DNA of 64,000 nucleotides from a candidate division WOR-3 bacterium. Its GTDB lineage: Bacteria; Hydrothermota; Tepidihabitantia; Tepidihabitantales; Tepidihabitantaceae. Within the stretch, counting starts at the first letter, position 1. The number at the start of each line of letters is the position of its first letter. A program made the translations under genes and the position numbers. Positions 27,401 through 51,244 of this stretch are shown piece after piece. Under the pieces are notes generated by a model, which had not been told where the DNA came from, did no database searches, and saw nothing but the letters and a program-made list of their open reading frames with translations. Where the stretch lies: assembly GCA_965649295.1 (NCBI GenBank), contig CBFGKH010000002.1:1-64000 (forward strand), given 5' to 3'.

Positions 27401-28982
27401 CCAGACTCTGCCGGGTGTGGTCTATGTTGACCAGAATCTCTTTACCTGCTCCGAGGACACGCAGCAGAAGATTCGCAAGGCGATTGAGGACTACCGGCTC
27501 AATCGGGTGGTGGTCGCTTCCTGCACGCCGCGGACGCACGAACCGCTCTTTCAGGAGACATTGGCCGAAGCCGGGCTCAATCCGCACCTCTTCACGATGG
27601 CCAACATCCGCGACCAGTGCTCGTGGGTGCACATGCAGGATGCGGTTGCCGCCACCGAGAAGTCGAAGGAGCTCGTCAGGATGGCGGTGGCGAACGCCCG
27701 GCTGCTCAAGCCGCTGCAATCGTTCCCGCAGGCCATCGTCCAGAAGGCGCTCGTCATTGGCGGTGGTCTCGCGGGCATGACCGCGGCGCTGGCGATTGCC
27801 GAGCAGGGGTTTGAGACCTGGCTGGTTGAGCGCAACGACCGGCTTGGCGGCAACCTGCTCAAGCTCCGTTACAACGAGGCCGGCGATGATATCGCCGGCT
27901 ATCTCGCCCGGCTCGAAGAACGGGTGCGGCGACACTCGCTCGTTCACGTCCTGACCGGCACCGAGCTCGTCGGCGTGTCCGGCTATGTCGGCAACTACCG
28001 GTCGCGGCTTGCCACCCGGGATGGCGTGACCGAGGTCGAGCATGGGGTGTTTGTGGTGGCGACCGGTGCAAACGAATACCGGCCGACTGAATACCGCTAT
28101 GGTCAGGATGAGCGGGTGATGACGCAGACCGAGCTTGAGGCCCTGCTGGCCGAGAGGCCGGCGGTGGCGGCCGGGCTGCGGCACGTGGTGATGATTCAGT
28201 GCGTCGGCTCGCGCGAGCCCGAGCATCCCTGGTGCTCGCGGGTCTGCTGCACCGAGGCGGTGAAGAATGCGTTGCGACTGAAGGGTCTCAACCCGCAGGC
28301 CAACGTCTATGTGCTCTACCGCGACCTGCGCACCTATGGTTTCAAGGAGGCACTCTACCGCGACGCCCGGGCCGCCGGGGTGATGTTCATTCGCTTTGAC
28401 CCGGAGACGATGCCGGAGCTTTGTGACCGGGACGGCAAGTTGCACGTCTCGGTCTATGACCCGGTGCTGCAGCGCCGGCTCGGCATCAATGCTGATATGC
28501 TCGTCCTTTCGACCGGTATCGTCCCGCCCCAGTCGAATCATGAGCTTGGTCAGTTGCTCAAGGTGCCGCTGAACGAGGACGGTTTCTTCCTCGAAGCGCA
28601 CATGAAGCTGCGGCCGGTTGATTTCACCACGCGCGGCGTGTTTATGGCCGGTCTTGCCCACAGTCCGCGGCGGATTCCGGAGACAGTGGCCCAGGCCTAT
28701 GCGGCGGCGGCGCGGGCCTGTTCAATTATCTCCCATAAGGAGCTTTCGACCGAGGCGGTGGTGGCCGAGGTGAATCCGCGCTGGTGCGTTGGTTGCGGGG
28801 TCTGCGAAAAGGTCTGTCAGTATGAGGCGGCCCGGCTCAACCCGCTGACCGGCAAGTCAGAGGTGACGGCGGTGCTCTGTCAGGGCTGCGGCGCCTGTGC
28901 GGCGGCCTGTCCGTCCGAGGCGATCAAGCTCAAGGGCTTTGAGGCGAGGAATGTGATGGCGATGGTTGATGCTGCGCTGTAG
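24495..28982 (+). CDS. Large HdrA-like protein (HdrL type): two HdrA flavin modules with an inserted GltD/NfnB-like NAD(P)H module
   Basis: FPTNDCSMC; PCRLACP..CGRVCHHPCEEAC; GAGPAG; GGGNVAVD; EAERCLNC; second GVFVCNCGINI and GGGLAG module. Confidence 0.9.
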   Translation: MANNEERTKADSRPAPVGAVLVVGSGIGGIQSSLELADAGFRVYLLDEGPAIGGVMAMLDKTFPTNDCSMCILSPKLVATGRHQNIELLNYCELLALEGEPGRFRARIRRKPRYVLLDKCTGCMDCTKVCPVSLPDIFNQGLAQRGATYKLYPQAIPNAVAIEKNEAKPPCRLACPSGVNAQGYVALIAKRKFREAYELVRDRLPFPGICGRVCHHPCEEACNRQEYEGPVAIRTLKRFVADYVYGHNIQFPVIKEPAASRAERVAVVGAGPAGLTCALDLRAKGYQVTVFEASAKAGGMMRWGIPAYRLPRPILDREIDDILATGIELRTNTTIAGTAGVQQLLAEGYSAVFLGIGAGRSRTLKIAGMDLDGVMLGIDFLREVNEGKMPPVGRRVVVIGGGNVAVDVALCARRCGAEDVTMVCLECREEMPAYEYEIAEALAEGVKLNPSWGPQAIVGENGRVTGLRTVECTRVFDEEGRFNPEFNSCNEGFVPADTVILAIGQAVAADDFDGFERGPGGTFKTDKLTLATNVPGVFAGGDMVSGPASVIEAVAAGHEAAISIDRFINGLDLAAGRAKPEEKRATAEESAAARAKIVRRERAPESQRWTEAKGDLRGNFAEIGLGYDEETAVAEAERCLNCGICSECLQCVAACEAKAIDHSMVATEEELEVGAVVVAAGFKEYKPTGEYGYGYGRYPNVVTSLEFERILSASGPYEGHVRRPSDRTQPRKIAWIQCVGSRNAEHYYCSSVCCMYATKEAVIAREHCGGNLQCHIYYMDMRCFGKDFERYYERAKNEYGIVYRRCKVSAVTRKGARGQGADEENLIISYEDEAGVLREEEYDLVVLSTALGANPRATELAQRIGVGADDQGFVRTDRFEPMLTSRPGVYACGAVVEPKDIPETVTESTGTAAAVASLLSAGRGTLVRKKEYPPFCDVSGEEPRIGVFVCNCGINIGGVVRVPSVVEYAQTLPGVVYVDQNLFTCSEDTQQKIRKAIEDYRLNRVVVASCTPRTHEPLFQETLAEAGLNPHLFTMANIRDQCSWVHMQDAVAATEKSKELVRMAVANARLLKPLQSFPQAIVQKALVIGGGLAGMTAALAIAEQGFETWLVERNDRLGGNLLKLRYNEAGDDIAGYLARLEERVRRHSLVHVLTGTELVGVSGYVGNYRSRLATRDGVTEVEHGVFVVATGANEYRPTEYRYGQDERVMTQTELEALLAERPAVAAGLRHVVMIQCVGSREPEHPWCSRVCCTEAVKNALRLKGLNPQANVYVLYRDLRTYGFKEALYRDARAAGVMFIRFDPETMPELCDRDGKLHVSVYDPVLQRRLGINADMLVLSTGIVPPQSNHELGQLLKVPLNEDGFFLEAHMKLRPVDFTTRGVFMAGLAHSPRRIPETVAQAYAAAARACSIISHKELSTEAVVAEVNPRWCVGCGVCEKVCQYEAARLNPLTGKSEVTAVLCQGCGACAAACPSEAIKLKGFEARNVMAMVDAAL

Positions 28983-29014
28983 CTGAGTGAAAATGCTGAA
29001 CGAAGGAAGCGGTG

Positions 29015-29437
29015 ATGGAGAAATTTGAGCCGAAGATTGTCGGGTTTCTGTGCAACTGGTGCACCTACGCCGGTGCCGACCTGGCCGGGACATCGCGGAT
29101 GCAGTATCCGCCCAACATGCGGCCGATTCGGGTTATGTGCTCGGGCGCGGTTGACTCGGTTTATATCGTGCGGGCCTTGCTCGAAGGGGCGGACGGCGTG
29201 TTTCTGGGTGGGTGCCATCCGGGCGACTGCCACTATGTTTCCGGCAACTACAAGGCCCGGCGCCGGATGGTGCTTTTCAACTCGATTATGAAGTCGCTTG
29301 GTCTTGACGATAGCCGGGTCTGGTTGCGCTGGATTTCGGCAGCCGAGGGCCGCAAGTTTGCCGATACGATTACCGAGTTCACGGAACACCTGCGCGCCAA
29401 AGGCCCGAGTCCGTTCAAGACAATCTGGGAAGTGTGA
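29015..29437 (+). CDS. mvhD: MvhD/FlxD-like [2Fe-2S] subunit
   Basis: GFLCNWCTYAGAD, RVMCSG, GADGV..GCHPGDCHY, WISAAEG. Confidence 0.93.
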   Translation: MEKFEPKIVGFLCNWCTYAGADLAGTSRMQYPPNMRPIRVMCSGAVDSVYIVRALLEGADGVFLGGCHPGDCHYVSGNYKARRRMVLFNSIMKSLGLDDSRVWLRWISAAEGRKFADTITEFTEHLRAKGPSPFKTIWEV

Positions 29438-29444
29438 GGCGGTG

Positions 29445-30563
29445 ATGAAGGGAACGCTCCGCGTTGAGAATCGCAATCCGGAACAGACACTACGGGACCT
29501 GTTCGGCCGCTGGCTCAAAGAGAGCCGGCTGTCGGCAATCCTCGTGCCGGCCTACTCGGCAGCCGGCACCGCCACTGTCGCCCTCGTCTCGAACCCGGAC
29601 AAGCTCGGTGAGGCCGCACCGCTGCTGCCGGCAATGGCGGTCAATGCCGCTTCAATCGTCGCCAGCATCGCTGCCGAGGCATCGCCGAACGCTCGGGTCG
29701 GGCTGTTTTTGCGGCCGTGCGAGCTGCGGGCGGTGGTTGAGCTGCTCAAGCTCAAGCAGATTGACCCGGCGAGCCTGGTGCTGATTGGCATTGATTGCCC
29801 CGGCACCTACAAGGCGGCCGGTTTCCGCAACATTCGCGGCGCAGACGCCGACTTCGACAATAAGCACGTCCGCGACCAGGCGAACTACGCTGCCAACGTC
29901 AACTTCCGGACCGCCTGTCAGCTCTGCGAATACCCCAGGCCGCTGGTGTTTGACCTGGCCATTGGCTACATCGGCATGAACCCGGACGAGGAGCTCTGGG
30001 TTGAGGCGGCAACCGACAAGGGCCGGGCGTTGCTCGAAGGTAGCCTCGTGACCGAAGCGGAGGAGCCAGCCAGCCGCCAGCAGGCGCTGGAGCGGCTGAG
30101 CACCGCCCGCAAGACAAGGACGGCAGAACGCATTGCCGAGCTGGATAGGCAGATGATGGGGCCAGAGAAGCTGGTTGCCTACTTTGCCGATTGCCTCAAC
30201 TGTCACAACTGCATGAAGGTCTGCCCGGTCTGCTACTGCCGCGAGTGTTTCTTCGATTCCGATACCTTCCAGCGCGATATCGGCGAGCACGTCCGGGTAT
30301 CGCTGCGCAAGGGCCTGACCCGGATGCCGTCTGAGACCCTGCTTTTCCATCTGACGCGGATGAATCACATGATGACATCCTGCGTGGCCTGCGGCATCTG
30401 TGAGGACTCCTGCCCGGTGACCATCGGCCTGGCTACGCTCTTCAAGAAGGTATCGCAGAACGCGCAGGCCGAGTTTGACTACGTGTCCGGCCGCAGTCTT
30501 GATGAACCGCTGCCCTTGACGACGTTCCGCGAGACCGAGTTCACCAAGGTTGGAGAGGAGTAG
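29445..30563 (+). CDS. FdhB/FrhB-related (FlxC-like) 4Fe-4S protein
   Basis: RPCELRAVVEL.K..Q, GIDC.G, CLNCHNCMKVCPVCYC, FHLTR..H, CVACGICEDSCP; start moved to ATG 29445. Confidence 0.85.
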   Translation: MKGTLRVENRNPEQTLRDLFGRWLKESRLSAILVPAYSAAGTATVALVSNPDKLGEAAPLLPAMAVNAASIVASIAAEASPNARVGLFLRPCELRAVVELLKLKQIDPASLVLIGIDCPGTYKAAGFRNIRGADADFDNKHVRDQANYAANVNFRTACQLCEYPRPLVFDLAIGYIGMNPDEELWVEAATDKGRALLEGSLVTEAEEPASRQQALERLSTARKTRTAERIAELDRQMMGPEKLVAYFADCLNCHNCMKVCPVCYCRECFFDSDTFQRDIGEHVRVSLRKGLTRMPSETLLFHLTRMNHMMTSCVACGICEDSCPVTIGLATLFKKVSQNAQAEFDYVSGRSLDEPLPLTTFRETEFTKVGEE

Positions 30564-30565
30564 AC

Positions 30566-31300
30566 TTGGCCGAGGCACCGGAACTGCTGGTCAACGACCT
30601 CGACCTTGAGTTCAAGTATCGGCTGGCAGCCAAGTATGGTGACACCGGGTTCATGCACTGCCTGTCGTGCGGGTCGTGCTCGGCTTCCTGTCCGGTGCGC
30701 CGGCTGGAGGAGAAGTACAACCCGCGGCGCATTATCCGCATGGCGATACTGGGGATGAAGGAAGAGGTCTATCGGTCTGAGTTTGTCTGGATGTGTTCCT
30801 ACCACACGACTTGCCTCAACCGTTGCCCGCAGGCAGTGAACATCGGTGAGGTCGCGGACGCGGTGGCGCGACTGGCCGAAGCCGAGCGGCGGCAGCCGAC
30901 CCCGCCGGCGGAGAGGATTCGTCAGCCGGACTTTGACCGGGACTTCAAGAAGCAGGTCCAGAAGATGGCTCCGAGCGCGAGCGCCTGTTTTGTCTGCGGC
31001 TCGTGCAGCGCAGTCTGCCCGGAGACGCTCTTTGACCCGACCAAGGACCCCCGCCGGTTTATCCGCAAGGTGAACATGGGCCTGCGCGATGCTGCCCTGG
31101 CCGATGAGTTCAAGGACATCTGCGCCACCCACTTTCGCTGCCTTTCGCGCTGCCCGCAGGGCGTGCAGATATCGAGGATAATGAACGCAATCAAGGCGTG
31201 TGCAATTGAGGACGGATTTGGCTACCCGGCAGCGCTGGCGGCGCTGGAGGTGCCGGTTGAGACGAGGCCAGAAGCCAGAGGTCAGCGTGCAGATTATTAG
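30566..31300 (+). CDS. Tandem double HdrC-like Fe-S protein
   Basis: CLSCGSCSASCP..CSYHTTCLNRCP and CFVCGSCSAVCP..CATHFRCLSRCP; TTG start after GGAG. Confidence 0.85.
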   Translation: MAEAPELLVNDLDLEFKYRLAAKYGDTGFMHCLSCGSCSASCPVRRLEEKYNPRRIIRMAILGMKEEVYRSEFVWMCSYHTTCLNRCPQAVNIGEVADAVARLAEAERRQPTPPAERIRQPDFDRDFKKQVQKMAPSASACFVCGSCSAVCPETLFDPTKDPRRFIRKVNMGLRDAALADEFKDICATHFRCLSRCPQGVQISRIMNAIKACAIEDGFGYPAALAALEVPVETRPEARGQRADY

Positions 31301-31406
31301 GGGACGCGGCGCAGCCAAGCGAGCTTAGGATGGTTGTGGCTCTAGCTTCTGCATTCTTGCTGCTAGGTCCTGCCTTCGTCCGGCCTGAGATAGGCGAGGT
31401 GTTCCT

Positions 31407-34400
31407 GTGAGCGAAGAACGGGTTGGTGCGGTGCTGGTCATCGGTGGCGGCATCGGTGGGGTGCAGGCGGCGCTGGATTTGGCTGATTCTGGGTACAAGG
31501 TCTATCTGGTTGAGCGGTCGCCGGCAATCGGTGGCATCATGGCGATGCTCGACAAGACCTTCCCGACCAATGACTGTTCGATGTGCATCCTGTCGCCGAA
31601 GCTCGTGGCTGCGGGCCGACATAGTAACATCGAGCTATTGACCTTAACCGAGGTGGTGGGCATTGAGGGCGAACCCGGCAACTTCCAGGTGAAGCTACTG
31701 CGGCACGCCCGTTCGGTTGACCTGACAAAGTGTACCGGCTGCGGCGACTGCCTCGCCAAGTGTCCAGTGCGGGACCTGCCCAATGAGTTTGAAGGCGGAC
31801 TCTCCCAGCGGCGCGCCATCTATCGGCTCTATGCCCAGGCCGTGCCGAATGCGCCGACGATTGACCGCGAGCACTGCCTTAAGTTCCAGAAGGATAAGTG
31901 CGGTGCCTGCCAGAAGAGCTGCAAGGCCGGCGCGATTGACTACAGCCAGCAGGATGAGGAGCTGACAATTGCGGTCGGTGCAGTGGTGGTCGCGGCCGGA
32001 TCGAAGATTGCGCCGACCGGACTGCGGCCTGAGTATGGGCATGGCCGTTATCCGAATGTCGTTACCAGCTTGGAGTTTGAGCGGATTCTTTCGGCCTCAG
32101 GGCCGTTCGGTGGCCATGTGCAGCGGCCGTCGGACGGCCGGGTGCCAAGGCGGGTGGCCTGGCTGCAGTGCGTTGGCTCGCGTGATGATTCGGTCGAGCG
32201 CGGCTACTGCTCGGCGATGTGCTGCATGTATGCAGTGAAGGAGGCGGTCATTGCCAAGGAGCACGCGAAGGAGATTGAGCCGACGGTCTTCTACATGGAC
32301 ATGCGTTCCTATGGCAAGGATTTCGACCGCTATGTCGAGCGGGCCGAGCAGCAGTATGGTGTGCGGCTGGTGCGGGCGCGGGTGCCGGAGATACGTGAGG
32401 ACCCTGGGACTCACAACCTGATTCTCCGCTATGCCGGCGATGGCGGTGCCCGGGCCGAGGAGTTCGACATGGTTGTGCTCGCCTGCGGGTTTGTGCCGCC
32501 ACCGGAACTGGTCGAGCTTTCCCGGCGACTCGATTTTGAGCTGGACCGGTTCGGGTTCTGTCGTGCCGATGCCTGGAATCCGGTGCAGACGAGCCGGAGC
32601 GGTGTGAGCGTGGCTGGTTCATTCGCCCAGCCGATGGCGATTCCTGAGGCGGTGACGACAGCGTCGGGAGCAGCGGCGGTGGCAGAGGAGTTGCTGGCGG
32701 CTGAACGCGGCCAGCTTGCTCAGGCGAAAGAGGCTCCGGCTGAGCTGGACGTGCGCGGCGATGCTCCGCGCATCGGGGTGTTTGTCTGTCACTGCGGTAT
32801 CAATATCGGCGGTGTGGTGCGCGTGCCAGAGGTGGTCGAGTTTGCCCGGACCCTGCCGCACGTGGTCTTTGCAACCGAGAATCTCTACTCTTGTTCGGGC
32901 GATACTCAGGAGAAGCTGAAGGAGTGGATTCGCGAGCACCGGCTGACGCGGGTGGTGGTGGCTTCCTGCTCACCGCGGACGCACGAGCCGCTGTTCCAGG
33001 CGACCTGCGCCGAGGCCGGGCTGAATCCCCATCTCTTTGCGATGGCCAATATCCGGGACCAGTGCTCTTGGGTGCACATGCAGGAGCCGGACAAGGCAAC
33101 CGCGAAGGCCAAAGACCTTGTCAAGATGGCGGTGGCCCGGGCAGTGCGGCTGCGGCCGTTGCCCAAGGTCGAGCTGCCGGTCAGAAAGTCCGGCTTGGTG
33201 ATTGGCGGTGGTATTGCCGGAATGACTGCCGCCCTAGCGCTGGCTGGCGAGGGATTCGAGGTGGCGCTGGTCGAGCGCGAGCCGGAGCTGGGCGGCAATG
33301 CTCGTTCTATCGCGAAGACGGTTGAGGGCGACGACGTGCGCAGGCGGCTGGCCGAACTGGTGGCGCAGGTGCAGAGCCAACCGCGCATCAAGGTCTATAC
33401 TGGGGCGCGAATAAGGCAAATTGACGGGTTCGTGGGCAATTTCCGGACGACAATCGAGCGGTCGGAAGGGACCAGTGGATCGGATGTGCAGGTCGAGCAC
33501 GGAGTCGTGGTCGTCGCCACCGGTGCCGAGTACCGCACGCCGACTGAGTACGGTTATGGCGAATCCGGGCAGATTGTCACCCAAAAGGAATTTGAGGAGA
33601 TGCTCGCCGGCAGAACGGCGGCGGTTGCCAAGCTCGATTCAGTAGTCATGATTCAGTGCGTCGGCTCGCGCGAACCTGACCGGCCCTACTGCTCGCGCAT
33701 CTGCTGCGCCGAAGCGGTGAAGAACGCGCTCGCGCTCAAGGAGCTGAACCCGAATGCTCAGGTCTTTGTGCTCTACCGCGACATCCGCACCTATGGCCTG
33801 CGCGAGGAGTACTATCGCAAGGCACGCGAGGCCGGCGTCGTCTTCATCCGCTACTTGCCGGAGCAGAAGCCGGAAGTGCGGGTCGTTGGTGGCCGGCCCG
33901 TGGTCACCGCGTTCGACCCGATACTCGGCCAGACCATCGAGTTTGGGCCTGACCTGCTCGTGCTCTCATCCGGGCTTGTGCCGAGAACAGGTTCAGAAGA
34001 GCTGGCCCAGATGCTCAAGGTGCCGCTCAACGCCGACGGCTTCTTTCTGGAAGCCCATATGAAGCTGCGGCCGGTCGATTTCGCCACCGAGGGTGTCTTC
34101 ATGGCCGGACTCTGCCACTTCCCCAAGTTTATTGACGAGGCGGCGGCCCAGGCCAAAGCCGCTGCCGGCCGCGCCGCCACGATTCTTTCGCGCGACAAGC
34201 TTGAGGCTGAGGCGACAGTGGCTCACGTTGACCCGGCCAAGTGCTCAGCCTGCCATATGTGCGAAACCCTCTGCGCCTATCGCGCCATCGAGGTCAAGAC
34301 GATCAACGAGCGGACCGGCAAGCAGGCCGCGGTCGTGAACGAGGCGCTCTGCAAGGGCTGCGGTGCCTGTGCCGCCAACTGCCGCTCACTGGCAATAGAC

Positions 34401-34457
34401 ATTCGCGGGTTCGGGTCGGAGAATATCTACCGCGAGCTGGTGGCGCTGCTCGACTAG
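31407..34457 (+). CDS. Long double-module HdrA-like protein
   Basis: GGGIGG, FPTNDCSMC, two QCVGSR motifs, GVFVCHCGINI, EAHMKLRPV, C-terminal ferredoxin. Confidence 0.9.
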   Translation: MSEERVGAVLVIGGGIGGVQAALDLADSGYKVYLVERSPAIGGIMAMLDKTFPTNDCSMCILSPKLVAAGRHSNIELLTLTEVVGIEGEPGNFQVKLLRHARSVDLTKCTGCGDCLAKCPVRDLPNEFEGGLSQRRAIYRLYAQAVPNAPTIDREHCLKFQKDKCGACQKSCKAGAIDYSQQDEELTIAVGAVVVAAGSKIAPTGLRPEYGHGRYPNVVTSLEFERILSASGPFGGHVQRPSDGRVPRRVAWLQCVGSRDDSVERGYCSAMCCMYAVKEAVIAKEHAKEIEPTVFYMDMRSYGKDFDRYVERAEQQYGVRLVRARVPEIREDPGTHNLILRYAGDGGARAEEFDMVVLACGFVPPPELVELSRRLDFELDRFGFCRADAWNPVQTSRSGVSVAGSFAQPMAIPEAVTTASGAAAVAEELLAAERGQLAQAKEAPAELDVRGDAPRIGVFVCHCGINIGGVVRVPEVVEFARTLPHVVFATENLYSCSGDTQEKLKEWIREHRLTRVVVASCSPRTHEPLFQATCAEAGLNPHLFAMANIRDQCSWVHMQEPDKATAKAKDLVKMAVARAVRLRPLPKVELPVRKSGLVIGGGIAGMTAALALAGEGFEVALVEREPELGGNARSIAKTVEGDDVRRRLAELVAQVQSQPRIKVYTGARIRQIDGFVGNFRTTIERSEGTSGSDVQVEHGVVVVATGAEYRTPTEYGYGESGQIVTQKEFEEMLAGRTAAVAKLDSVVMIQCVGSREPDRPYCSRICCAEAVKNALALKELNPNAQVFVLYRDIRTYGLREEYYRKAREAGVVFIRYLPEQKPEVRVVGGRPVVTAFDPILGQTIEFGPDLLVLSSGLVPRTGSEELAQMLKVPLNADGFFLEAHMKLRPVDFATEGVFMAGLCHFPKFIDEAAAQAKAAAGRAATILSRDKLEAEATVAHVDPAKCSACHMCETLCAYRAIEVKTINERTGKQAAVVNEALCKGCGACAANCRSLAIDIRGFGSENIYRELVALLD

Positions 34458-35030: not shown

Positions 35031-35549
35031 GTGTCCAGATACGATGAACTATGTAATGCCTATGTTGCGGCCCGAAACGAGTTCTTTCAGCGCCGGGAGC
35101 GGTGCGTCGCTTTTGCAGCAATGCTGATGAAGGGATTCGAGACCTATATCGGGGCACCGCTTTTTCAGATGCGCTTTGTGCCGCATACTGGCGATGCGGC
35201 CGCGGCCAAAACTAATTCGCCGGATGCGGCAGCGTGGCTGGGGAACGACGGACGGTGGCACTTCCTTATCGGCCTGCCGCTGGTCGAACGGGTTCAGGGG
35301 AGCAACAAGGGCGGTACGACGCAGACGCTGCGGTTCGACCTCCATGTCGCGCCGGTCGAAACGGGCTTCAACGTCGGCGTGACCGGGACGAATGAACGTT
35401 TTGACCTGCCGGCAACCGAGAACGCGCCTGAGCACCAGCCGTTCTTTGAGTTTCTTTACGGGCAGATGGCCCGCGTCTATCAGCAGCCGGGCCTGAAGTT
35501 TCTCGATAACATGCCCGACACCCTGCGCACCCTGCACGGTGACCGCTAG
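35031..35549 (+). CDS. Hypothetical protein
   Basis: GGAGG RBS, GTG start, TTGACT-16-TAGGCT promoter upstream, natural composition. Confidence 0.7.
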   Translation: MSRYDELCNAYVAARNEFFQRRERCVAFAAMLMKGFETYIGAPLFQMRFVPHTGDAAAAKTNSPDAAAWLGNDGRWHFLIGLPLVERVQGSNKGGTTQTLRFDLHVAPVETGFNVGVTGTNERFDLPATENAPEHQPFFEFLYGQMARVYQQPGLKFLDNMPDTLRTLHGDR

Positions 35550-35673: not shown

Positions 35674-35811
35674 GGCCGGGCGGCGAAGAACCGCCGGCCC
35701 GGAGGAGAGACCGTCCGCGGTCGCCGTTCGCCGTAGCCTGTCAAGACGACCAGGCTGGACGCAGTTTAGTGCGCCCAGCCTGGAGGTTGTTGCCGACAAC
35801 CGCTGGCTCGG

Positions 35812-37956
35812 CTAGAAGCTCAGTCTGATTCCCGCGCTAAAGACCCGACCGCGTGACGGGCCCCAGAGGGGCACTTCTTCCACCAGCCAGCCAGATTGGA
35901 CGTAGTCAAAGAGATTCTCGACACCGGCGGAAATGACTAGGTTGGAGCCGACCGGCTGCGATGCCCGCACGTTCCAGAGGGTGTAGGTCGGTGAATAACC
36001 GGCCCGCACCAGCTCGCCGGCTACGCGCTGCTGATAGGGCATGCTGCCGACCAGCTCGCCGTTCAACGTCAGCTTGTGCCCGAGCCGGGGATGTTCATAG
36101 CTAGCTTGCCAGTTGGCAGCGTGGCGTGACCGATAGACGAGCGGCTCACCACTGGTTCGGTCATGAGCATCGGTGAACGTGTAGCCAGCACGCAGCTCGA
36201 AACCGGCAGGCAGGCGCAGGCCGATATCGAGTTCGAGCCCTTGAGTCACAAACGAGCCGACGTTCTGGTACTGGTAGCGGCGAAGCAGGTTTGCGCTGTC
36301 GTATTCGACCAGCCGTTCTTCGATCATGTTGCTCAGGTCGTTTCGGAACAGACCGGCCGTGAGGACAAAGTCACCGGGATGGTATTCGGCGCCGAGCGTC
36401 CCGCCGATTGACCGTTCGGGAACCAGGCGTGGGTTCTGGATGAAATCGTACATTCCCTGGCCAGGGCAGAAATGGGTCAGTTTCGAAAAGGTGGGGGGTG
36501 TCTTGTTGCCAAGGCCGAACGTACCGCGCACGGTCAACTTGTCGGTGGGGTCAAACTGGACGGCAAGGCCAGGGGTGAGCGAGATGCCGAAGTCAGAGTG
36601 TCGCTCAACTCGGGCGTGGGGTGTCAGTTGGAGTAGTCCCAGCCGCAGACGGTCTTGAATCGAGAGGCCGGTCATGGCGACAGAGCGCACGCTCAGGCGC
36701 GTGTTCTCCACCAGTCGTTCGTAGCGATGGCTGGCTGCTGCTTGCAGCGCATGGTTCTGGGTTAGCGTCTGTCTCACCGCAAGTTCCAGAAAGACGGCGT
36801 CTTCGAACGCATTGAACCACTGGTTGGCGACAAAGACTCGCTGCCGGTAGTCGGAGTAGGTGCCCCGCAGCCAGACACTCGTGGCTGCGCTCGGCTGCCA
36901 AGAAAGAGTTGCGTTTGGGCCCCATTGGCGGATGTTAGGATTCTGATAGAGCCCGGAATCGGACCGGCCAAGAATCCGCGCAATCGCGCCGCCTTGGCGT
37001 TCTTCAATATTAGCATTGGCTCCGAGACTGAGGTCGAGCTCACTGCCGAGGCGCTGGTTCAGCTTCAGAGTCAGTGCTGCCCGGTCGGCTTTGACGTAGT
37101 CGGAATTGCCGTCGCGGTCAATGTCCACTGGGTCGGCCTGGCTCTTGCTTAGGCTGACGCTGACGCCGGTATTTTCAAGCTTCAGGTTGAGCGTTGCGCC
37201 CAGCGCCAGCGTTCCGTAGGTACCGGCGCTCAGATTGACAGCGCCGCCGGTGGTGTCGGCCGACTTGGTTACAACGTTGACTGCACCAGCGATGGCGTCG
37301 CCGGAGTAGGCTAGCCCGCCCGCGCCCTTGACGACCTCGAGCCGTTCAACATTCTCGGTGGCGAGGTGCGAGAGGCCGTAGAATGTGCTGATGTCGGAGA
37401 GTGACGGGGCGCCGTCAACAAGTACCTGGGCATACTTGCCGGCCATGCCCTGAATCTGGACCTCAGCCGCGTTACTGCACGGACACTTAGTTTTCACGGC
37501 CACGCCGGGCTGCCAGCGCAGTACCTCCTGAATGTTGGCGGCGCCGCGCTCGGCGATTTCCTGCTCCGAGACGACGGCAGTGGGCACCGGCTTGTCGTCT
37601 AGGGTGCGCAGGTCAGGTCGCACCGCAATCGAAGGCATTTCTACTGGCTGGGGCCGAAGCCGGAAAGAGGCTTCAACCTGGCCAAAGGCCGGTACCATGA
37701 CGGTGAGGGTCTCGGTGCCGAACCCGACGGCTGAGGCGACAATCCGCTGCCGGCCAGCCGGAACACCGACAAGTTGATAGTGACCAGACTCGGTTGCGGC
37801 CGCGCCCAGCTTAGTGCCGATAACAACAAGATGGGCAAGGGGAATTGGATCACCGCTGGCGTCGTCAATGACGATGCCGGTGACAACCCCAGTCTGCGCG
37901 GTGGCAATCGCCGCGGCGACAAACAGTAGCCAGGCAGTTCTACTAGCAAGACTCAC
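35812..37956 (-). CDS. TonB-dependent receptor with N-terminal carboxypeptidase-regulatory-like domain
   Basis: Signal peptide; plug VERLEVVKGA..YSGDAIAGAVNVVTK; GVENLFD; C-terminal Phe; AAGGAGG RBS. Confidence 0.93.
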   Translation of the reverse strand: MSLASRTAWLLFVAAAIATAQTGVVTGIVIDDASGDPIPLAHLVVIGTKLGAAATESGHYQLVGVPAGRQRIVASAVGFGTETLTVMVPAFGQVEASFRLRPQPVEMPSIAVRPDLRTLDDKPVPTAVVSEQEIAERGAANIQEVLRWQPGVAVKTKCPCSNAAEVQIQGMAGKYAQVLVDGAPSLSDISTFYGLSHLATENVERLEVVKGAGGLAYSGDAIAGAVNVVTKSADTTGGAVNLSAGTYGTLALGATLNLKLENTGVSVSLSKSQADPVDIDRDGNSDYVKADRAALTLKLNQRLGSELDLSLGANANIEERQGGAIARILGRSDSGLYQNPNIRQWGPNATLSWQPSAATSVWLRGTYSDYRQRVFVANQWFNAFEDAVFLELAVRQTLTQNHALQAAASHRYERLVENTRLSVRSVAMTGLSIQDRLRLGLLQLTPHARVERHSDFGISLTPGLAVQFDPTDKLTVRGTFGLGNKTPPTFSKLTHFCPGQGMYDFIQNPRLVPERSIGGTLGAEYHPGDFVLTAGLFRNDLSNMIEERLVEYDSANLLRRYQYQNVGSFVTQGLELDIGLRLPAGFELRAGYTFTDAHDRTSGEPLVYRSRHAANWQASYEHPRLGHKLTLNGELVGSMPYQQRVAGELVRAGYSPTYTLWNVRASQPVGSNLVISAGVENLFDYVQSGWLVEEVPLWGPSRGRVFSAGIRLSF

Positions 37957-37993
37957 AGTATCCTCCTTTTGTTCGGTTATTCTGCTGCCACTG

Positions 37994-38016
37994 CTCCGTC
38001 TCGGCTGGAGACGGAG
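37994..38016 (-). promoter_or_regulatory. Hairpin between the leader ORF and the TonB receptor RBS
   Basis: CTCCGTCTC-N5-GAGACGGAG perfect 9-bp stem, no U tract. Confidence 0.55.
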
Positions 38017-38029
38017 TGTTGCGTTCGAG

Positions 38030-38431
38030 TTAGGAAAGGGAAGGAGGACTGCGGGGACCGAGCTGACCGAGATAGCACTGGTTCGGATGCTGAGCTGTTG
38101 TCTCGGCCCGCGGCCAAGGAGTTGGATTCGCTGCGGGCTGGGCGCAAACTGGGTCAGCTATCGCCGGCAGTTGCCGTTCCGCCCGGGGCTGAAGCGGCTG
38201 GGCTTTGGCAAGTCGGGTCGGACATGTCCGGCATTCCTGAACCGCGGGCCGCAACTGGCCGGCTGATTGGGACGGACTGGCAGTGGTGGTGAGGTGCCCA
38301 GTACAGCAGTTTAACTCCATCGGACTGGCCGTACCGTCGCCGCAGCCGCAGATGTTACGTTGCAGCGGCTGCAGGGCGACCAAGACGGCACAGACCAGAA
38401 TCAGTGCTCGTGTTCGTTCTGATGCCACCAT
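38030..38431 (-). CDS. Cys-rich leader protein ending in RSPP (CruR/DUF2946/HYC_CC_PP-like)
   Basis: Hydrophobic N-terminus; CGC, CC..H, CRTC; C-terminal [15 protein letters not shown]-17-TAGACT promoter immediately upstream. Confidence 0.65.
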
Positions 38432-38491
38432 CTAAGTCTATTATCCTCCGGCTGGACGGTCAACGGTAGCCGTCACTCGGCGCTACCTGCG

Positions 38492-38520
38492 TTGACTTGG
38501 CCGGTTACAGCCTCTATAAT
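38492..38520 (+). promoter_or_regulatory. Sigma-70-type promoter of the rpmH operon
   Basis: TTGACT-17-TATAAT. Confidence 0.8.
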
Positions 38521-38536
38521 CCGACCCGAGGAATTT

Positions 38537-38674
38537 ATGCCCAAGCGAACATATCAACCATCTCGCGTCAAGCGCGCGCGCACCCACGGTTTCCGAGCCC
38601 GGATGAGCACGCCGAGCGGCCGCAATGTTCTCCGGCGGCGGCGGCAGAAGGGTCGCAAGCGTCTGACCGTATGA
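38537..38674 (+). CDS. rpmH: 50S ribosomal protein L34
   Basis: [32 protein letters not shown]. Confidence 0.98.
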
Positions 38675-39064
38675 ATGTCCGACTCGCCTGCTGCCGATAT
38701 GACCTTGAAGCGAAGCGAGATACTGAGGCGCCGCCGCGACCTTGGTCGGGTAATCCGCTCCGGCACGAGAATTGCCGGCCCGGCGCTGTATCTCCGTTTC
38801 GCACCCCAGCCTGCTAGTTCAGACAATCTGCCGGCCCGGCGTATTGCCTTTCTGCTTTCGCGGCAGGTTGGCACCGCCGTTGTCCGCAACCGGGTCAAGC
38901 GGCTGCTGCGGGAGGCCTATCGCCGGCACAAGGACTGGTTCCGACCGGGCTATGACTATGTGCTCGGAGCTGGGCCAGGCGTAGTCGGTCTCAGTCTCGG
39001 TCAAATCGAAGAACAGACCCGGTCGCTGACCGGTCGCATAGCCCAAGATGACACTAGTGCTTAG
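38675..39064 (+). CDS. rnpA: RNase P protein component
   Basis: GTAVVRNRVKRLLREAYR; follows rpmH. Confidence 0.93.
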   Translation: MSDSPAADMTLKRSEILRRRRDLGRVIRSGTRIAGPALYLRFAPQPASSDNLPARRIAFLLSRQVGTAVVRNRVKRLLREAYRRHKDWFRPGYDYVLGAGPGVVGLSLGQIEEQTRSLTGRIAQDDTSA

Positions 39065-39299
39065 TTTGCTAGTTCGACTGTACCAGCTCACGCTCGGGAC
39101 GGTCCTGCCCAATGCCTGTCGGTATCAGCCGAGCTGCTCTAACTATGCGCTGGAGGCGCTGCGCTTGCACGGGGCTGGTCGCGGCTCGCTGCTCGCTCTG
39201 CGCCGGCTGCTGCGCTGCAATCCGTTCTCTGGCGGCGGGTTTGACCCGGTGCCGCCGGCAACCAACCCTGAACTGGCCAATACAAGGAAGGCGAAGTGA
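39048..39299 (+). CDS. yidD: Membrane protein insertion efficiency factor YidD
   Basis: CRYQPSCSNY, RLLRCNPF..GGFDPVP. Confidence 0.95.
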   Translation: MTLVLSLLVRLYQLTLGTVLPNACRYQPSCSNYALEALRLHGAGRGSLLALRRLLRCNPFSGGGFDPVPPATNPELANTRKAK

Positions 39300-40855
39300 A
39301 ATCAGATACGACCCGGATGATCGTCGGCTTCTTGCTGATTCTCGTTATTCTTATCGGCTGGCAGTTGCTCTATCGGCCCAAGCCTCGGGTTCAGCCGACG
39401 CCAACGGCTGAAGTGCCGCCACCAGCGCCAACACCAGCACCGGCGCCAACAGCGGAGCCGAAGGTAGCGCTGGCTCCAATGCCGGCGATTCCAGTAGCCG
39501 AGACAACGGTCGTATTGGCCAATGATTTCTTGCAGCTTGAGTTCTCGAATATTGGCGGCCGGTTGCTGCGGGTTCGCCTGAAGAAGTTCGATGCCGAACT
39601 GGTACCTGAGTCGGGCGCGCTGCTTGGCACCACGCTCGTTACTGATTCGGGTGCGTTCAGCCTAGCCCCGGTGCCGATGAAGGTGACGGGCAGCGATAGT
39701 AGCGTTGAGTTCAGTTATGAGGCGGGCGGCATCGGCATCAGCAAGTCGTTTGTCCTCGGGCCACGCTATGCGCTGCGCCATAACATTAGCACCACTGGTG
39801 CTATTGGCGTCGTCCTTGATGGTGCGGCGGGCTTGGCTCTGACCGAGACTGCGTCCAAGGAGGGGCTTGGTTATTACAGCTTCTCGGTGCGGAACGGCCG
39901 CAAGACCCGAACGGTCGCAGCTACTAAACTGAATAAGCCCTGGAGCAATAACGAACCAGCCGCCTGGGTTGCGGCCCGTTCGAAGTACTTTGTGCTGGTG
40001 CTGGCCGGGCCGGATTCGAGCTTTGACTCCTGCCATGCGTTCCGGCTGGAAGACGGTCGCGTTGGGTTCGGGGCAGCGAGCCACCGGCCGCAACTGAATC
40101 TGACGCTCTATCTTGGTCCGGTTGACGAGCGAGAGCTCGGGCCGCTCGGGCTGGGGGGAATCATCGCCCACGGCTGGACCCGGCCGATTGAACTGGCGAT
40201 GCTCTGGCTGCTGCGGTTGCTCTACTCGCTGGTCCGCAACTGGGGCCTGGCCATCGTCATCTTCGCGGTGCTGATGAAGGCGTTGCTCTGGCCGATCTCG
40301 CGCACCCAGACAAAACAGATGCGGCAGATGCAGTTACTGCAGCCAAAGCTGAATGAGCTGAAGGCCAAATACAAAGACGACCAGCAGAAGCTCAACGCCG
40401 AGACGATGCAGCTCTACAAACTGTACAAGATCAATCCGCTGGCCGGCTGTCTGCCGATGCTACTGCAACTGCCGATATTTTGGGCACTGTACGCGGTGCT
40501 GCGCAACGCGATCGAGATGCGCGGTGCCCGTTTTGTACTCTGGCTGCACGACCTGTCGCAGCCCGACACCTTGTTCGGCCATCTTCCGCACGGTATTCCG
40601 CTAATCGGCGGCTATGCCTTTGGCCTGCTGCCGGTAATGATGGGCGTCTCGTTTATCGCCCAGAATCTGATAACCTCGACCGACAAGAAGAACTGGGCCT
40701 TGACGATTATCTTCCCGGTGTTCATCACCGCCATCTTTCTGAACCTGCCGAGCGGGCTGCAACTCTACTGGTTTATGTATAACATTCTATCCATCGGCGA
40801 GACTCTGTTCGCCGTCAAAGGAGGTAAGCTATGGCGCAAGCAGACGAGTCAGTGA
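39296..40855 (+). CDS. yidC: Membrane protein insertase YidC
   Basis: N-terminal TM, periplasmic domain, NWGLAI, NPLAGCLP.LLQLPIF, W..DLS.PD, PSGLQLYW. Confidence 0.96.
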   Translation: MKSDTTRMIVGFLLILVILIGWQLLYRPKPRVQPTPTAEVPPPAPTPAPAPTAEPKVALAPMPAIPVAETTVVLANDFLQLEFSNIGGRLLRVRLKKFDAELVPESGALLGTTLVTDSGAFSLAPVPMKVTGSDSSVEFSYEAGGIGISKSFVLGPRYALRHNISTTGAIGVVLDGAAGLALTETASKEGLGYYSFSVRNGRKTRTVAATKLNKPWSNNEPAAWVAARSKYFVLVLAGPDSSFDSCHAFRLEDGRVGFGAASHRPQLNLTLYLGPVDERELGPLGLGGIIAHGWTRPIELAMLWLLRLLYSLVRNWGLAIVIFAVLMKALLWPISRTQTKQMRQMQLLQPKLNELKAKYKDDQQKLNAETMQLYKLYKINPLAGCLPMLLQLPIFWALYAVLRNAIEMRGARFVLWLHDLSQPDTLFGHLPHGIPLIGGYAFGLLPVMMGVSFIAQNLITSTDKKNWALTIIFPVFITAIFLNLPSGLQLYWFMYNILSIGETLFAVKGGKLWRKQTSQ

Positions 40856-41355
40856 ACGTTCCGGAGAATGAGTCAGCTGTTCCGCCATCTCCTCTGCCGG
40901 TTGACCAGCAGGAACTTGTCCGGCTGACGGTTGAGAAGATTGTCAACCTGATGGGCTTGCGCTGTCGGGTTGAGATTACCTACGAGCGCGACGGCTATGT
41001 TGCCGAGGTGGTCGCCAAGCGGCCGGCAACGTTTCTTGTCGGCCGGCGCGGCGAGATACTCGACGCGATTGGGCTATTGGCGCATCAGATTGCCAGCCGT
41101 CAGTATCCCCAGTGTCCGCCGGTAACGGTTGATGCCGATGGATTCCGGCGCCGGCACCAGCAGCAACTGCGCGGCAAGGCCCAGGCGATTGCCACGATTG
41201 TGCAGAACACGGGCCGCGAGATGGCAGTTGACTTTCTCACCGAGGAAGAGTTCCGGATAGTGAAGGAAGAGCTGCGCTCTAATCGAGCGGTCCGAGTGCA
41301 TGCGGTCGGCGACGGCGAGCGCCGTAATGTCATCATCTCGCCTGCGGCCCGCTGA
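40831..41355 (+). CDS. jag: Jag/KhpB-like RNA-binding protein (KH plus degenerate R3H)
   Basis: LVGRRGEILDA KH motif; C-terminal GDGERRNVII; located between yidC and mnmE. Confidence 0.8.
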   Translation: MAQADESVNVPENESAVPPSPLPVDQQELVRLTVEKIVNLMGLRCRVEITYERDGYVAEVVAKRPATFLVGRRGEILDAIGLLAHQIASRQYPQCPPVTVDADGFRRRHQQQLRGKAQAIATIVQNTGREMAVDFLTEEEFRIVKEELRSNRAVRVHAVGDGERRNVIISPAAR

Positions 41356-41359
41356 CCGG

Positions 41360-42673
41360 GTGCGGCCGACAGTGGCGGCGCTGGCGACGCCGCCCGGCCA
41401 GAGTGCGCTGGCGGTCATCCGGGTAAGCGGCCCGGACGCACTGCCGATTGTTGACCGGCTGGTGCCCGGCTGCCGAATCCGCACCCAGCCGTCACATACG
41501 GTCAGGCTTGGCTGGTGCCGGGACAGTGCCGGCAAGCCGATTGACCAGGTGCTGGTGACGGTCTTTCGCTCTCCCCGTTCATATACCGGTGAGGATATGG
41601 CCGAGATATCCTGCCACGGTGGCTTGGCCGCGCCGGCCGCAGTTCTCGACCGGCTGTTCGAGCTTGGCTGTCAGTCGGCCGAGCCCGGTGAGTTCACCCG
41701 GCGGGCAGTGCTGGCGGGCAAGCTGACCGTGGCCCAGGCCGAGGCAGTTCTCGAGATAATCAATGCTCAGTCACCGGCCGCGCTGCGGGCGGCGACCAAA
41801 CGTTACCAGGGTCAGTTGGCAGAGTTTGTGGCTCAAACCGGGGCCGAGCTGAGCCAGGTGCTGGTTGAGCTTGAGTACAGCCTGCTCGACGATGGCCCGC
41901 TACCACCGCTCAATCGCCGGCTAGGCAGACTGGCAGCCGGAATTGAGCGCGAGCTAGCCTTGGCCAGTCAGAATCGCTTTCTCTACGAAGGAGCGAAGGT
42001 GGCGATTGTCGGTCGGCCTAATGTCGGCAAGTCGAGTCTCTTTAATCGGCTGCTGGGTACGGCTCGAACCATTGAGAATCGGTTGCCGCACACCACCCGC
42101 GACGCGGTCAGTGCCGATGTGATGATTGGGGATATCAGGGTGCGGCTGACCGATACTGCCGGTCTTTCGGCGCGACCGGTGCCGGCGCTGACGCTGCAGG
42201 CACAGGCAAAAACCCGGCAGGCGATTGCCGAGGCTGACCTGGTGCTGGTTGTGCTTGACCGTTCACTGCCAAGCCAGCGGGCCGACCGGTTGGTGCTGGC
42301 CGAGACAGCCACCCGGCCACGAATAGTTGTGCTCAACAAGGCAGATCGGCCAGACCGACTTGGGCCGGCAGCCGGGCTGCGGCCGCGAGTGGCGGTATCG
42401 TGTCGAACCGGAGCCGGGCTTACTGGCCTGCGGCGGCTGCTGGCCAAGCGGCTTGCTCCGGGTGCCGGAATCGGGCTGGTTGCCGGAGAACGTCAGCTGG
42501 CGGTCCTGCGGGACTGCCTGGCAGCGGTAGAGCGCAGTCGGACAGCGCCCAATGCCGAGATTGCGGCACTTGAAATCCGGCAGGCCCTTGATATGCTGGC
42601 TCAGCTTGACATTCGTTTTCCAACCCAGGCGATTCTCGACCAGGTTTTTGCCCGGTTCTGTGTCGGCAAGTGA
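41360..42673 (+). CDS. mnmE: tRNA modification GTPase MnmE
   Basis: ALATPPG..ALAVIRVSG, SYTGED.AEISCHG, GEFTRRA, GRPNVGKS, FCVGK; start moved to GTG 41360. Confidence 0.95.
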   Translation: MRPTVAALATPPGQSALAVIRVSGPDALPIVDRLVPGCRIRTQPSHTVRLGWCRDSAGKPIDQVLVTVFRSPRSYTGEDMAEISCHGGLAAPAAVLDRLFELGCQSAEPGEFTRRAVLAGKLTVAQAEAVLEIINAQSPAALRAATKRYQGQLAEFVAQTGAELSQVLVELEYSLLDDGPLPPLNRRLGRLAAGIERELALASQNRFLYEGAKVAIVGRPNVGKSSLFNRLLGTARTIENRLPHTTRDAVSADVMIGDIRVRLTDTAGLSARPVPALTLQAQAKTRQAIAEADLVLVVLDRSLPSQRADRLVLAETATRPRIVVLNKADRPDRLGPAAGLRPRVAVSCRTGAGLTGLRRLLAKRLAPGAGIGLVAGERQLAVLRDCLAAVERSRTAPNAEIAALEIRQALDMLAQLDIRFPTQAILDQVFARFCVGK

Positions 42674-51196: not shown

Positions 51197-51202
51197 GAGT
51201 AA

Positions 51203-51244
51203 GTCAAGAGTCAAAAGCCAAGTGTCAAGAGCCAATGGTCAAGA
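51203..51244 (+). repeat. Heptamer tandem repeat, 6 copies
   Basis: GTCAAGA GTCAAAA GCCAAGT GTCAAGA GCCAATG GTCAAGA. Confidence 0.75.

What the first reader, a model, noticed from the sequence alone, without database searches (positions are those of the whole stretch)
35812..38463. RSPP-ending Cys-rich leader ORF upstream of a Cys-bearing TonB receptor: candidate metal-sensing ribosome-stalling switch
Seen: a 133-aa ORF with a hydrophobic N-terminus, CGC, CC..H, CRTC and C-terminal GPRSPPSLS. It has a promoter directly in front and lies 73 nt upstream of the receptor gene, with a 9-bp hairpin in between. The receptor has KCPCS in its plug and HFC in the barrel. Established: Bordetella CruR (DUF2946) uses CxxC and a RAPP arrest motif to control a downstream TonB transporter in response to copper. 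Inference: an analogous system in a distant anaerobic lineage, with an RSPP variant and extra Cys clusters; the metal sensed is unknown.
Basis: partly seen in the sequence, partly recalled or inferred. Interest (0 to 1): 0.72.

Follow-up and report, generated by a model that had tools for sequence, protein, structure and literature searches.

The report
Cysteine-rich stalling leader before metal receptor
A small cysteine-rich gene ending in Arg-Ser-Pro-Pro is conserved in front of an outer-membrane receptor gene in uncultured WOR-3 bacteria, and it likely stalls its own ribosome to uncover the receptor's predicted-masked start signal when a metal (probably not copper) is scarce, a variant of known copper switches.

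Summary
Observation confirmed. The 133-aa ORF (38030-38431, minus strand) is conserved: 6 of 7 receptor orthologues with upstream DNA carry a Cys-rich leader ending PR[S/G]PP 2-3 residues before the stop, with synonymous codon changes and one switch to the canonical arrest motif RGPP. The spacing from the last Cys pair to RxPP is 56-61 residues in 7 of 7 leaders, long enough to reach the periplasm. A stalled ribosome frees the site by 8.2 kcal/mol here (strong in 3 of 6 orthologues, absent in 2). A Rho-type C>G bubble also exists. The receptor belongs to a Cys-plug/His-loop clade whose leaderless relatives follow DtxR/MntR, Fur, ZIP or DUF4198 genes; no copper enzymes were found in three family searches of this genome, so Zn, Mn/Fe or Ni/Co is likelier than Cu. 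Not DUF2946; CxxC is not conserved. Stalling and metal sensing are untested. The kind is published (CruR, CutF, RAPP-class leaders), and this scan reported it on other DNA many times.

The parts
38458..38463 (-). sigma70-like -35 box TTGACC of the leader promoter
   Evidence: same TTGACN-17/18-TAnnnT layout in front of 6 of 6 leaders
38435..38440 (-). sigma70-like -10 box TAGACT; start codon 3 nt (ATG) or 6 nt (GTG 38428) downstream, so the mRNA is probably leaderless
   Evidence: genome-wide ATG peak 6-8 nt after -10-like boxes (49, 37, 48 vs about 10 background)
38030..38431 (-). Leader ORF, 133 aa: export-signal-like N-terminus, Cys clusters C28xC30, C42C43, C67xxC70, unconserved Pro-rich spacer, C-terminal PRSPP+SLS
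   Evidence: no Pfam or NCBIfam family
38222..38233 (-). Proximal Cys pair C67-R-T-C70, 56 residues before RSPP (56-61 in all 7 leaders)
38042..38053 (-). R127-S-P-P130 codons (CGC AGT CCT CCT): predicted arrest motif; also the anti-Shine-Dalgarno strand
   Evidence: PMC12992588 passages
38041..38053 (-). 5' strand of predicted masking helix: 8 bp perfect with the SD region (38041-38048 with 37961-37968) plus 5 bp onto the GUG start
37994..38016 (-). 9-bp hairpin with 5-nt loop in the intergenic region, no U-tract; apical cap of the masking stem
   Evidence: not called as terminator
37954..37968 (-). Receptor ribosome-binding site (AGGAGG at 37962-37967) and GTG start, predicted masked in free mRNA
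35812..37956 (-). TonB-dependent receptor, 714 aa, of the Cys-plug/His-loop clade
37474..37488 (-). Plug motif K157-C-P-C-S161 (C158 invariant in 14 of 14 aligned orthologues; second Cys at 160 or 157)
36466..36474 (-). Barrel-loop motif H495-F-C497 (C497 invariant in 14 of 14; His in 12 of 14)
   Evidence: loop His co-occurs with plug Cys pair in 37 of 38 vs 5 of 71 other receptors

Best explanation
The ORF is a conserved leader gene whose product likely arrests its own ribosome at RSPP, and the stalled ribosome is predicted to melt an mRNA helix that otherwise hides the receptor's Shine-Dalgarno and start codon, so the receptor would be made when a thiol-binding metal (Zn is my best single guess, about 35%; Mn/Fe, Ni/Co next; Cu less likely) is scarce. 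Steps: (1) shown in sequence: a sigma70-like promoter with no room for a 5' UTR and no palindromic operator found drives leader plus receptor; (2) inferred: the hydrophobic N-terminus sends the nascent chain into SecYEG; (3) inferred from published mutants: RSPP slows peptide-bond formation with the first Pro in the P site; (4) computed: that ribosome covers the anti-SD strand and lowers the cost of opening the receptor RBS from 12.7 to 4.5 kcal/mol; (5) inferred: at the stall the last Cys pair lies 56 residues from the motif, just past the roughly 50 residues needed to reach the periplasm, so periplasmic metal would bind the Cys clusters, fold and pull the chain, release the stall, let the helix re-form and shut off receptor translation; (6) inferred: untranslated C-rich mRNA would then be open to Rho.
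For: Conservation in 6 of 7 orthologous loci and a seventh leader protein; PR[S/G]PP codons differ only synonymously in 6 loci except one Ser-to-Gly change giving RGPP. RSPP is partially arrest-permissive in ApdA/ApdP and was selected in E. coli stalling screens (PMC12992588 passages). Cys-pair-to-motif distance 56, 56, 59, 59, 59, 59, 61 across unconserved spacers; 0 of 20,000 shuffles as tight for all 7, 4 of 20,000 for 4 divergent ones. About 50 extended residues span PTC to periplasmic exit (PMC7513700 passage). RBS release on stalling: 8.2, 7.0, 11.5 kcal/mol in L001, L003, L005 (0, 1, 0 of 60 dinucleotide shuffles as large), 1.8 in L004 (3 of 60); cognate window-RBS duplexes beat permuted pairings (13 of 720), and native codons pair better than the mean of synonymous recodings in 6 of 6. 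Independent His-type leaders of the sister receptor subfamily: release positive in 15 of 16, larger than all 25 shuffles in 9 of 16. The receptor groups with Cys-plug receptors with trait columns removed (SH 100); of 30 genes tested directly upstream of leaderless sister receptors, 9 were DtxR/MntR, 2 Fur, 2 ZIP, 4 DUF4198; a CQNC-plug receptor is induced by Mn+Fe limitation and MntR-repressed (PMC13217887). The genome has no match to COX1, multicopper oxidase, cupredoxin, Fur or NikR, but has NiFe-hydrogenase matches, DtxR next to ZIP, ZnuA and Rho.
Against: No expression, stalling or metal-binding data. RBS release is absent in 2 of 6 orthologues (0.5 and 0.6 kcal/mol; 31 and 28 of 60 shuffles as large). 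The 191-nt region as a whole folds no better than shuffles (z -0.83). Pro-Pro codons are intrinsically complementary to GGAGG, and synonymous-recoding support is weak in 3 of 6 loci (340, 101, 182 of 1000). RSPP is only partially permissive in the tested contexts. LepB folding was sensed at about 70 residues (10.1101/2021.02.06.430026), so the proximal pair may sit at the channel exit rather than free in the periplasm. All WOR-3 loci are from one family (7 of 43 family genomes, 0 elsewhere among 272), so they are not independent. The DtxR neighbours belong to receptors only 25-28% identical, and 5 of the 9 are Eisenbacteria. One orthologue (L013) has no leader.
Confidence: 0.55

Rival explanations
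1. Same arrest leader and metal sensing, but the main output is Rho-dependent termination as in CruR: the stalled ribosome shields a C-rich rut site; the SD pairing is a by-product of Pro codons.
For: Rho is in the genome. All 6 loci have C>G windows over the last about 60-80 nt of the leader (32 C/13 G here), as in cruR (PMC9426467 section 4). No intrinsic terminator in the intergenic region. Two orthologues show no RBS switch.
Against: The C excess partly follows from Pro-rich coding. The intergenic region is short (73-146 nt) and predicted to be structured. Residues after PP vary together with their predicted partners next to the SD. The two outputs are not exclusive.
Confidence: 0.2
2. The leader monitors export or periplasmic thiol-disulfide status rather than a metal: disulfide formation or Sec pulling releases the stall, tuning synthesis of a Cys-containing receptor.
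For: CC and CxC pairs, not CxxC, are what is conserved. CutF's Cys are proposed to form disulfides that pull (10.1101/2025.02.05.636593 Discussion). RAPP/RGPP leaders also precede DsbA/thioredoxin genes, and CQNC receptors travel with a thioredoxin-fold protein.
Against: Sister receptors use His-only leaders with an equally fixed spacing (53-54 residues in 14 of 15) or metal repressors, which points to a metal signal for this receptor clade.
Confidence: 0.12
3. CutF polarity: metal binding induces the stall, so the receptor is made when metal is abundant.
For: CutF uses the same SD-unmasking output with metal-induced stalling; RSPP is a weaker staller that might need a trigger.
Against: TonB receptors import; relatives are preceded by metal-activated repressor families and the CQNC receptor is induced by limitation. 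RxPP arrest is intrinsic in vitro for CruR.
Confidence: 0.06
4. The ORF encodes a small secreted metal-binding protein (chaperone or sponge) co-transcribed with the receptor; RSPP has no regulatory role.
For: Signal-like N-terminus and 8-11 Cys per leader; L013 keeps a receptor-like frame without a leader.
Against: The best-conserved part is the terminal PR[S/G]PP, not the Cys region; length from Cys pair to motif is fixed while its sequence is not; the Atlas model of homologue P0160 is unfolded (pLDDT 0.47); L013's 5' end is replaced and lacks a signal peptide.
Confidence: 0.07

Closest known systems
CruR (Bp2923, DUF2946/PF11162) of Bordetella pertussis, leader of the TonB transporter BfrG (PMC9426467: abstract, Results parts 2-3, Discussion read; arrest shown in PMC12992588, passages)
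   Same: First gene of the transcript, export signal, Cys motif at a fixed distance from a C-terminal RxPP 2-3 residues before the stop, TonB receptor downstream, C>G bubble, Rho present.
   Different: No DUF2946 match; CC/CxC clusters instead of an invariant CxxC; spacing 56-61 vs 45 +/- 2; RSPP/RGPP vs RAPP; predicted SD-masking helix; probably leaderless mRNA; no copper genes in the neighbourhood and no copper enzymes found in three family searches.
CutF (DUF2946) of Rhodobacter capsulatus, leader of cutO (10.1101/2025.02.05.636593: abstract and Discussion read)
   Same: Secreted Cys-containing nascent chain, Pro-rich C-terminal stall, stalled ribosome melts a stem that shields the downstream SD; extracytoplasmic sensing.
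   Different: CutF stalls at PPP, is EF-P-sensitive, is induced by copper and controls a detoxifying oxidase; here the motif is RxPP, the target is an importer and the inferred polarity is opposite.
RAPP/RGPP-class small uORFs upstream of TonB-dependent receptors (PMC12992588, section 13 and passages read)
   Same: Small (<300 aa), secretory-type, C-terminal RxPP, upstream of a TonB receptor; reported as widespread in Gram-negative bacteria.
   Different: That survey collected RAPP and RGPP only, so RSPP leaders like 6 of these 7 were outside it; 'WOR' does not occur in its main text; its appendix and source data were not seen.
CQNC-type TonB receptor of Stenotrophomonas maltophilia (PMC13217887: passages and Discussion read)
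   Same: Cys pair in the plug, modelled there as a metal site with barrel residues; CQNC-bearing sequences fall in the same Cys-plug group as this receptor.
   Different: Controlled by MntR with a thioredoxin-fold partner, no uORF mentioned (0 occurrences); here CPC/CCP plug, HFC loop, monocistronic behind a leader. The Stenotrophomonas protein itself was not in my tree.

Membership tests
DUF2946 / CruR family | Match to Pfam PF11162 | tested here: not met
   0 Pfam families for 7 of 7 leaders at E<=10; no PF11162 match over cut-off anywhere in the genome
DUF2946 / CruR family | Invariant CxxC | tested here: not met
   CxxC in 1 of 7 leaders (this one); CxC in 5, CxxxC in 1 at the matching position
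DUF2946 / CruR family | 45 +/- 2 residues between Cys motif and RAPP | tested here: not met
   56-61 in 7 of 7 vs 45
DUF2946 / CruR family | Synteny with copper-homeostasis genes | tested here: not met
   No Cu-related Pfam among 39 neighbour ORFs scanned around 7 orthologues; COX1, Cu-oxidase_3 and Copper-bind not found in the genome
DUF2946 / CruR family | Copper-dependent regulation, Rho-dependent termination | not testable with these tools
   Rho gene and C>G bubble present; needs experiment
RAPP-like arrest uORFs upstream of TonB receptors | Small ORF with RxPP (x = A, G, S) near the C-terminus, conserved at peptide level | tested here: met
   RSPP in 6, RGPP in 1 of 7 leaders, 2-3 residues before the stop; synonymous codon variation
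RAPP-like arrest uORFs upstream of TonB receptors | N-terminal export signal | tested here: inconclusive
   Basic n-region and hydrophobic stretch in 7 of 7 (KD12 1.85-3.35); no signal-peptide predictor available, cleavage site not consistent
RAPP-like arrest uORFs upstream of TonB receptors | First gene of the transcript, directly upstream of the target on the same strand | tested here: met
   Promoter-like site directly in front in 6 of 6; gap 73-146 nt
RAPP-like arrest uORFs upstream of TonB receptors | Ribosome arrest at the Pro-Pro codons that controls the downstream gene | not testable with these tools
   Only computed RBS release
Cys-plug (CQNC-like) TonB receptors | Cys pair in the plug plus His/HxC in a barrel loop; common ancestry | tested here: met
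   (FastTree, midpoint root, SH support only)
Cys-plug (CQNC-like) TonB receptors | The residues form one metal site in 3D | not tested

The most novel reading that the evidence does not exclude
An unnamed WOR-3 family of leaderless arrest peptides is a periplasmic sensor for a non-copper metal (Zn, Mn/Fe or Ni/Co): a length-conserved 56-61-residue tether places Cys clusters beyond SecYEG while RSPP holds the ribosome on an anti-SD helix. The Cys-plug receptor clade has swapped among three interchangeable metal controls (DtxR/MntR or Fur repressors, His-type RxPP leaders with a 54-residue tether, and this Cys-type leader), and tether length would tell which side of the membrane is sensed. In a genome with no Fur or NikR match, the leader would stand in for a metal repressor.
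Probability: 0.3. Interest if true: 0.65.

Novelty: new variant of a known kind. Interest (0 to 1): 0.42.

Why it matters
The only metal-sensing arrest leaders with experimental support in the papers I found (CruR, CutF) respond to copper in proteobacteria. This family extends the design to an uncultured phylum, uses RSPP (outside the published RAPP/RGPP survey), and sits on a receptor clade tied to other metals, so it gives a concrete, heterologously testable candidate for nascent-chain sensing of a non-copper metal and for a tether-length rule (about 45 vs 54 vs 56-61 residues). The general kind is known and this scan has reported similar leaders many times, which limits surprise.

Tried and rejected
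Pfam/NCBIfam for the leader: nothing. Rfam over the whole window: 0 matches, so no known riboswitch. Intrinsic terminator in the intergenic region: none called; the 9-bp hairpin lacks a U-tract. Single-protein scan of genome contigs: 42 candidates, none confirmed. Metagenome scan with A2 was swamped by generic receptors (80 loci, 20-35% identity); among them 5 loci had an upstream RxPP-ending frame, 2 of which look like real leaders (L016 RAPP, L033 RGPP). Leader HMM over 272 phylum genomes returned only the 5 input leaders; protein search with the leader alignment gave 3 hits, 1 new. A WOR-3 receptor group with plug CSAC but no loop HxC (L007-L011, 26-29% identity) has no leader in 5 of 5 loci (one 53-aa Cys-free RQPP frame in L008 lies inside another gene). 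No shared operator or palindrome between the leader promoter and the DtxR-ZIP or ZnuA upstream regions. PDB sequence and fold searches gave only generic BtuB/Cir/PfeA-type receptors at 15-20% identity, which say nothing on substrate. Atlas search with homologue P0160: unnamed clusters at 0.95, nearest Pfam DUF6769 at 0.93, a lead only. Sequencing runs: no RNA holder listed. First tree run did not finish; FastTree used instead. Literature searches with no hit: 'WOR-3'+'TonB'; 'arrest peptide'+'zinc'+'TonB-dependent'+'upstream ORF' from 2022; other searches returned the papers cited. Supplements of the cited papers were not read and may list such leaders.
Full report
Observation. The minus strand carries a 133-aa ORF at 38030-38431 followed after 73 nt by a 714-aa ORF at 35812-37956. 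The long ORF is a TonB-dependent receptor with CarboxypepD_reg, plug and barrel domains (AF2 mean pLDDT 90.2; nearest solved folds BtuB, Cir, PfeA at 15-20% identity). Close homologues are named candidate division WOR-3 by their sources. The 9-bp hairpin is at 37994-38016. The leader matches no Pfam or NCBIfam family and the window holds no Rfam match.

Is the leader real? At E<=1e-70 the receptor has orthologues in 8 of 272 phylum genomes, all in the window's family. One locus (L006) ends at its contig edge. Of the other 7, six carry a Cys-rich ORF ending PRSPP (5) or PRGPP (1) plus 2-3 residues, 73-146 nt upstream. The seventh (L013) has none, but its 5' end is replaced by unrelated sequence without a signal peptide. 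A protein search added a seventh leader, P0162, again PRSPP. Background is low: 16 of 9,239 frames of 80-250 aa in this genome end that way. Across 6 loci the five codons of PR[S/G]PP differ only synonymously, except AGT to GGT, so selection acts on the peptide. RSPP is partially arrest-permissive in ApdA/ApdP, was recovered in E. coli stalling screens and is under-represented in proteomes (PMC12992588, passages). The leaders are only 21-32% identical to the window's, yet the distance from the last Cys pair to the Arg is 56, 56, 59, 59, 59, 59 and 61 residues; shuffling gave this tightness 0 of 20,000 times for all seven and 4 of 20,000 for four divergent ones (kin are not independent). The pair is CxxC only here; it is CxC in five and CxxxC in one.

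Promoter. All 6 leaders have TTGACN-17/18-TAnnnT directly in front, with ATG 3, 7, 6, 6, 6 and 10 nt after the -10 box. ATG peaks 6-8 nt after -10-like boxes genome-wide, so these mRNAs are probably leaderless; here the GTG at 38428 fits better than the ATG. No palindrome or motif shared with the DtxR-ZIP or ZnuA upstream regions was found. Control after initiation is therefore plausible (inference).

Folding shows the RSPPS codons pairing with the receptor's SD and GUG start: 8 perfect bp (38041-38048 with 37961-37968) plus 5 bp over the start codon, with the 9-bp hairpin as the cap. Forcing single-strandedness up to 15 nt past the first Pro codon (the P-site codon in CruR's toeprint) lowers the cost of opening the RBS from 12.7 to 4.5 kcal/mol; 0 of 60 dinucleotide shuffles gave as much. 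Orthologues: 7.0 (1 of 60), 11.5 (0 of 60), 1.8 (3 of 60), 0.5 (31 of 60), 0.6 (28 of 60). Cognate window-RBS duplexes beat 707 of 720 permutations; native codons paired as well as or worse than 21, 340, 14, 101, 182 and 41 of 1000 synonymous recodings. Against: the whole region is not unusually stable (z -0.83) and Pro-Pro codons are anti-SD-like by nature. Rho is present and all six loci have a C>G stretch at the leader's end, so a CruR-type Rho step may add to or replace SD masking.

The receptor and the metal. Among 109 full-length receptors from the profile search, 38 have a Cys pair in the plug; 37 of these also have a His or HxC/SFC in the loop matching H495-C497, against 5 of the other 71. 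With those columns removed, all 38 fall in one 42-row group with this receptor (SH 100; FastTree, midpoint root), including CQNC-bearing sequences. A CQNC receptor of Stenotrophomonas is MntR-repressed and induced by Mn plus Fe limitation (PMC13217887, passages and Discussion). I fetched 80 loci of the sister 'EDLHLCSGSP' subfamily (25-28% identity to this receptor). Fifteen of 72 scored loci (16 of 80 in all) have an upstream RxPP leader, against 7 of 221 control windows (in 4 loci the script anchored elsewhere than the reported match, so this is a lower bound). These are mostly a His-rich family (RAPP 11, RSPP 4, RGPP 1) with 53-54 residues from the last HxH to the motif in 14 of 15, and a stalled ribosome frees the RBS in 15 of 16, beyond all 25 mononucleotide shuffles in 9. 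Of 45 upstream genes at leaderless loci I scanned 30: 9 DtxR/MntR, 2 Fur, 2 ZIP, 4 DUF4198, 3 TonB, 1 FmdE, 1 HPr, 8 unnamed; of 47 downstream genes I scanned 35, including 4 CbiX-like, 3 ExbB and 1 ArsP-type permease. Five of the nine DtxR loci are Eisenbacteria. Neighbours of the WOR-3 orthologues themselves are unrelated housekeeping genes that differ between genomes. This genome (100% complete by markers) has no match to COX1, multicopper oxidase, cupredoxin, Fur, NikR or DUF2946, and has NiFe-hydrogenase matches, five TonB_C, one DtxR beside a ZIP-like gene (name from sequence, recalled) and ZnuA. A Cys3His set suits Zn(II) best (own knowledge), but Mn/Fe and Ni/Co are not excluded, and whether the four residues meet in space was not measured.

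Mechanism. Most likely the chain enters SecYEG, the ribosome pauses at RSPP and holds the anti-SD strand, and the receptor is translated. About 50 extended residues span the PTC to the periplasmic exit (PMC7513700, passage), and periplasmic folding was sensed at about 70 (10.1101/2021.02.06.430026, passages), so Cys clusters at 56-61, 83-93 and 96-105 residues would be at or beyond the exit. Metal binding would pull, release the stall and let the helix close. Shown: conservation, spacing, complementarity. Computed: RBS release. Inferred: export, arrest, metal binding, polarity, metal identity.

Comparison and verdict. It works like CruR and CutF (PMC9426467; 10.1101/2025.02.05.636593) but fails four testable DUF2946 criteria. 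It fits the broad class of RxPP leaders upstream of TonB receptors described in PMC12992588, whose survey took only RAPP and RGPP. My searches found no paper on WOR-3 with TonB or on a zinc-responsive arrest leader of a TonB receptor; paper supplements were not read. Earlier notes of this scan describe the same kind in at least 16 other genomes, several with RSPP and anti-SD pairing; none matched this receptor by sequence. They are unchecked and were not used as evidence; my SD-masking reading preceded them. Verdict: real, a new variant of a known kind, interest 0.42.

Noticed in passing
window 38492-42673 (+): A divergent strong promoter (TTGACT-17-TATAAT, 11 of 12) drives what look like rpmH-rnpA-yidD-yidC-jag-mnmE (names recalled from the translations, not searched). 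Its -35 box sits 24 nt from the leader's -35 box, back to back; this context is not shared by the orthologues.
   Followed up: no
G000 whole genome: Leaderless transcription looks common: ATG peaks 6-8 nt after -10-like boxes (49, 37, 48 of 878 sites vs about 10 elsewhere).
   Followed up: partly
   Followed up: partly
L188:6103-7345 (G000:C7 about 50100-51350): The genome's only DtxR/MntR-family gene is followed by a ZIP-like transporter and has a palindrome (GCCTAGT-ATTAGGC) just upstream; a BtuB-like receptor lies 2 kb away on the other strand.
   Followed up: partly
L013:1498-3882 (G205): Receptor orthologue whose leader and signal peptide are replaced by an unrelated fragment; possible rearrangement, pseudogene or misassembly.
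   Followed up: partly
L007-L011: A second WOR-3 receptor type with plug KRCSAC but no loop HxC and no leader in 5 of 5 loci.
   Followed up: partly
window 24495-34457 (+): Two large flavin/Fe-S ORFs (1495 and 1016 aa) flanking smaller Fe-S ORFs resemble an HdrA-MvhD-type electron-bifurcation cluster (recalled from motifs, not searched).
   Followed up: no
window 35750-35783: 14-bp hairpin without U-tract just after the receptor stop, facing the convergent 172-aa ORF 35031-35549 (+), which has no Pfam/NCBIfam match.
   Followed up: no
L175, L178, L180, L184: In Eisenbacteria the Cys-plug receptor sits between a DtxR-family gene and a CbiX-like gene, a lead for Co/Ni/Fe substrate.
   Followed up: no
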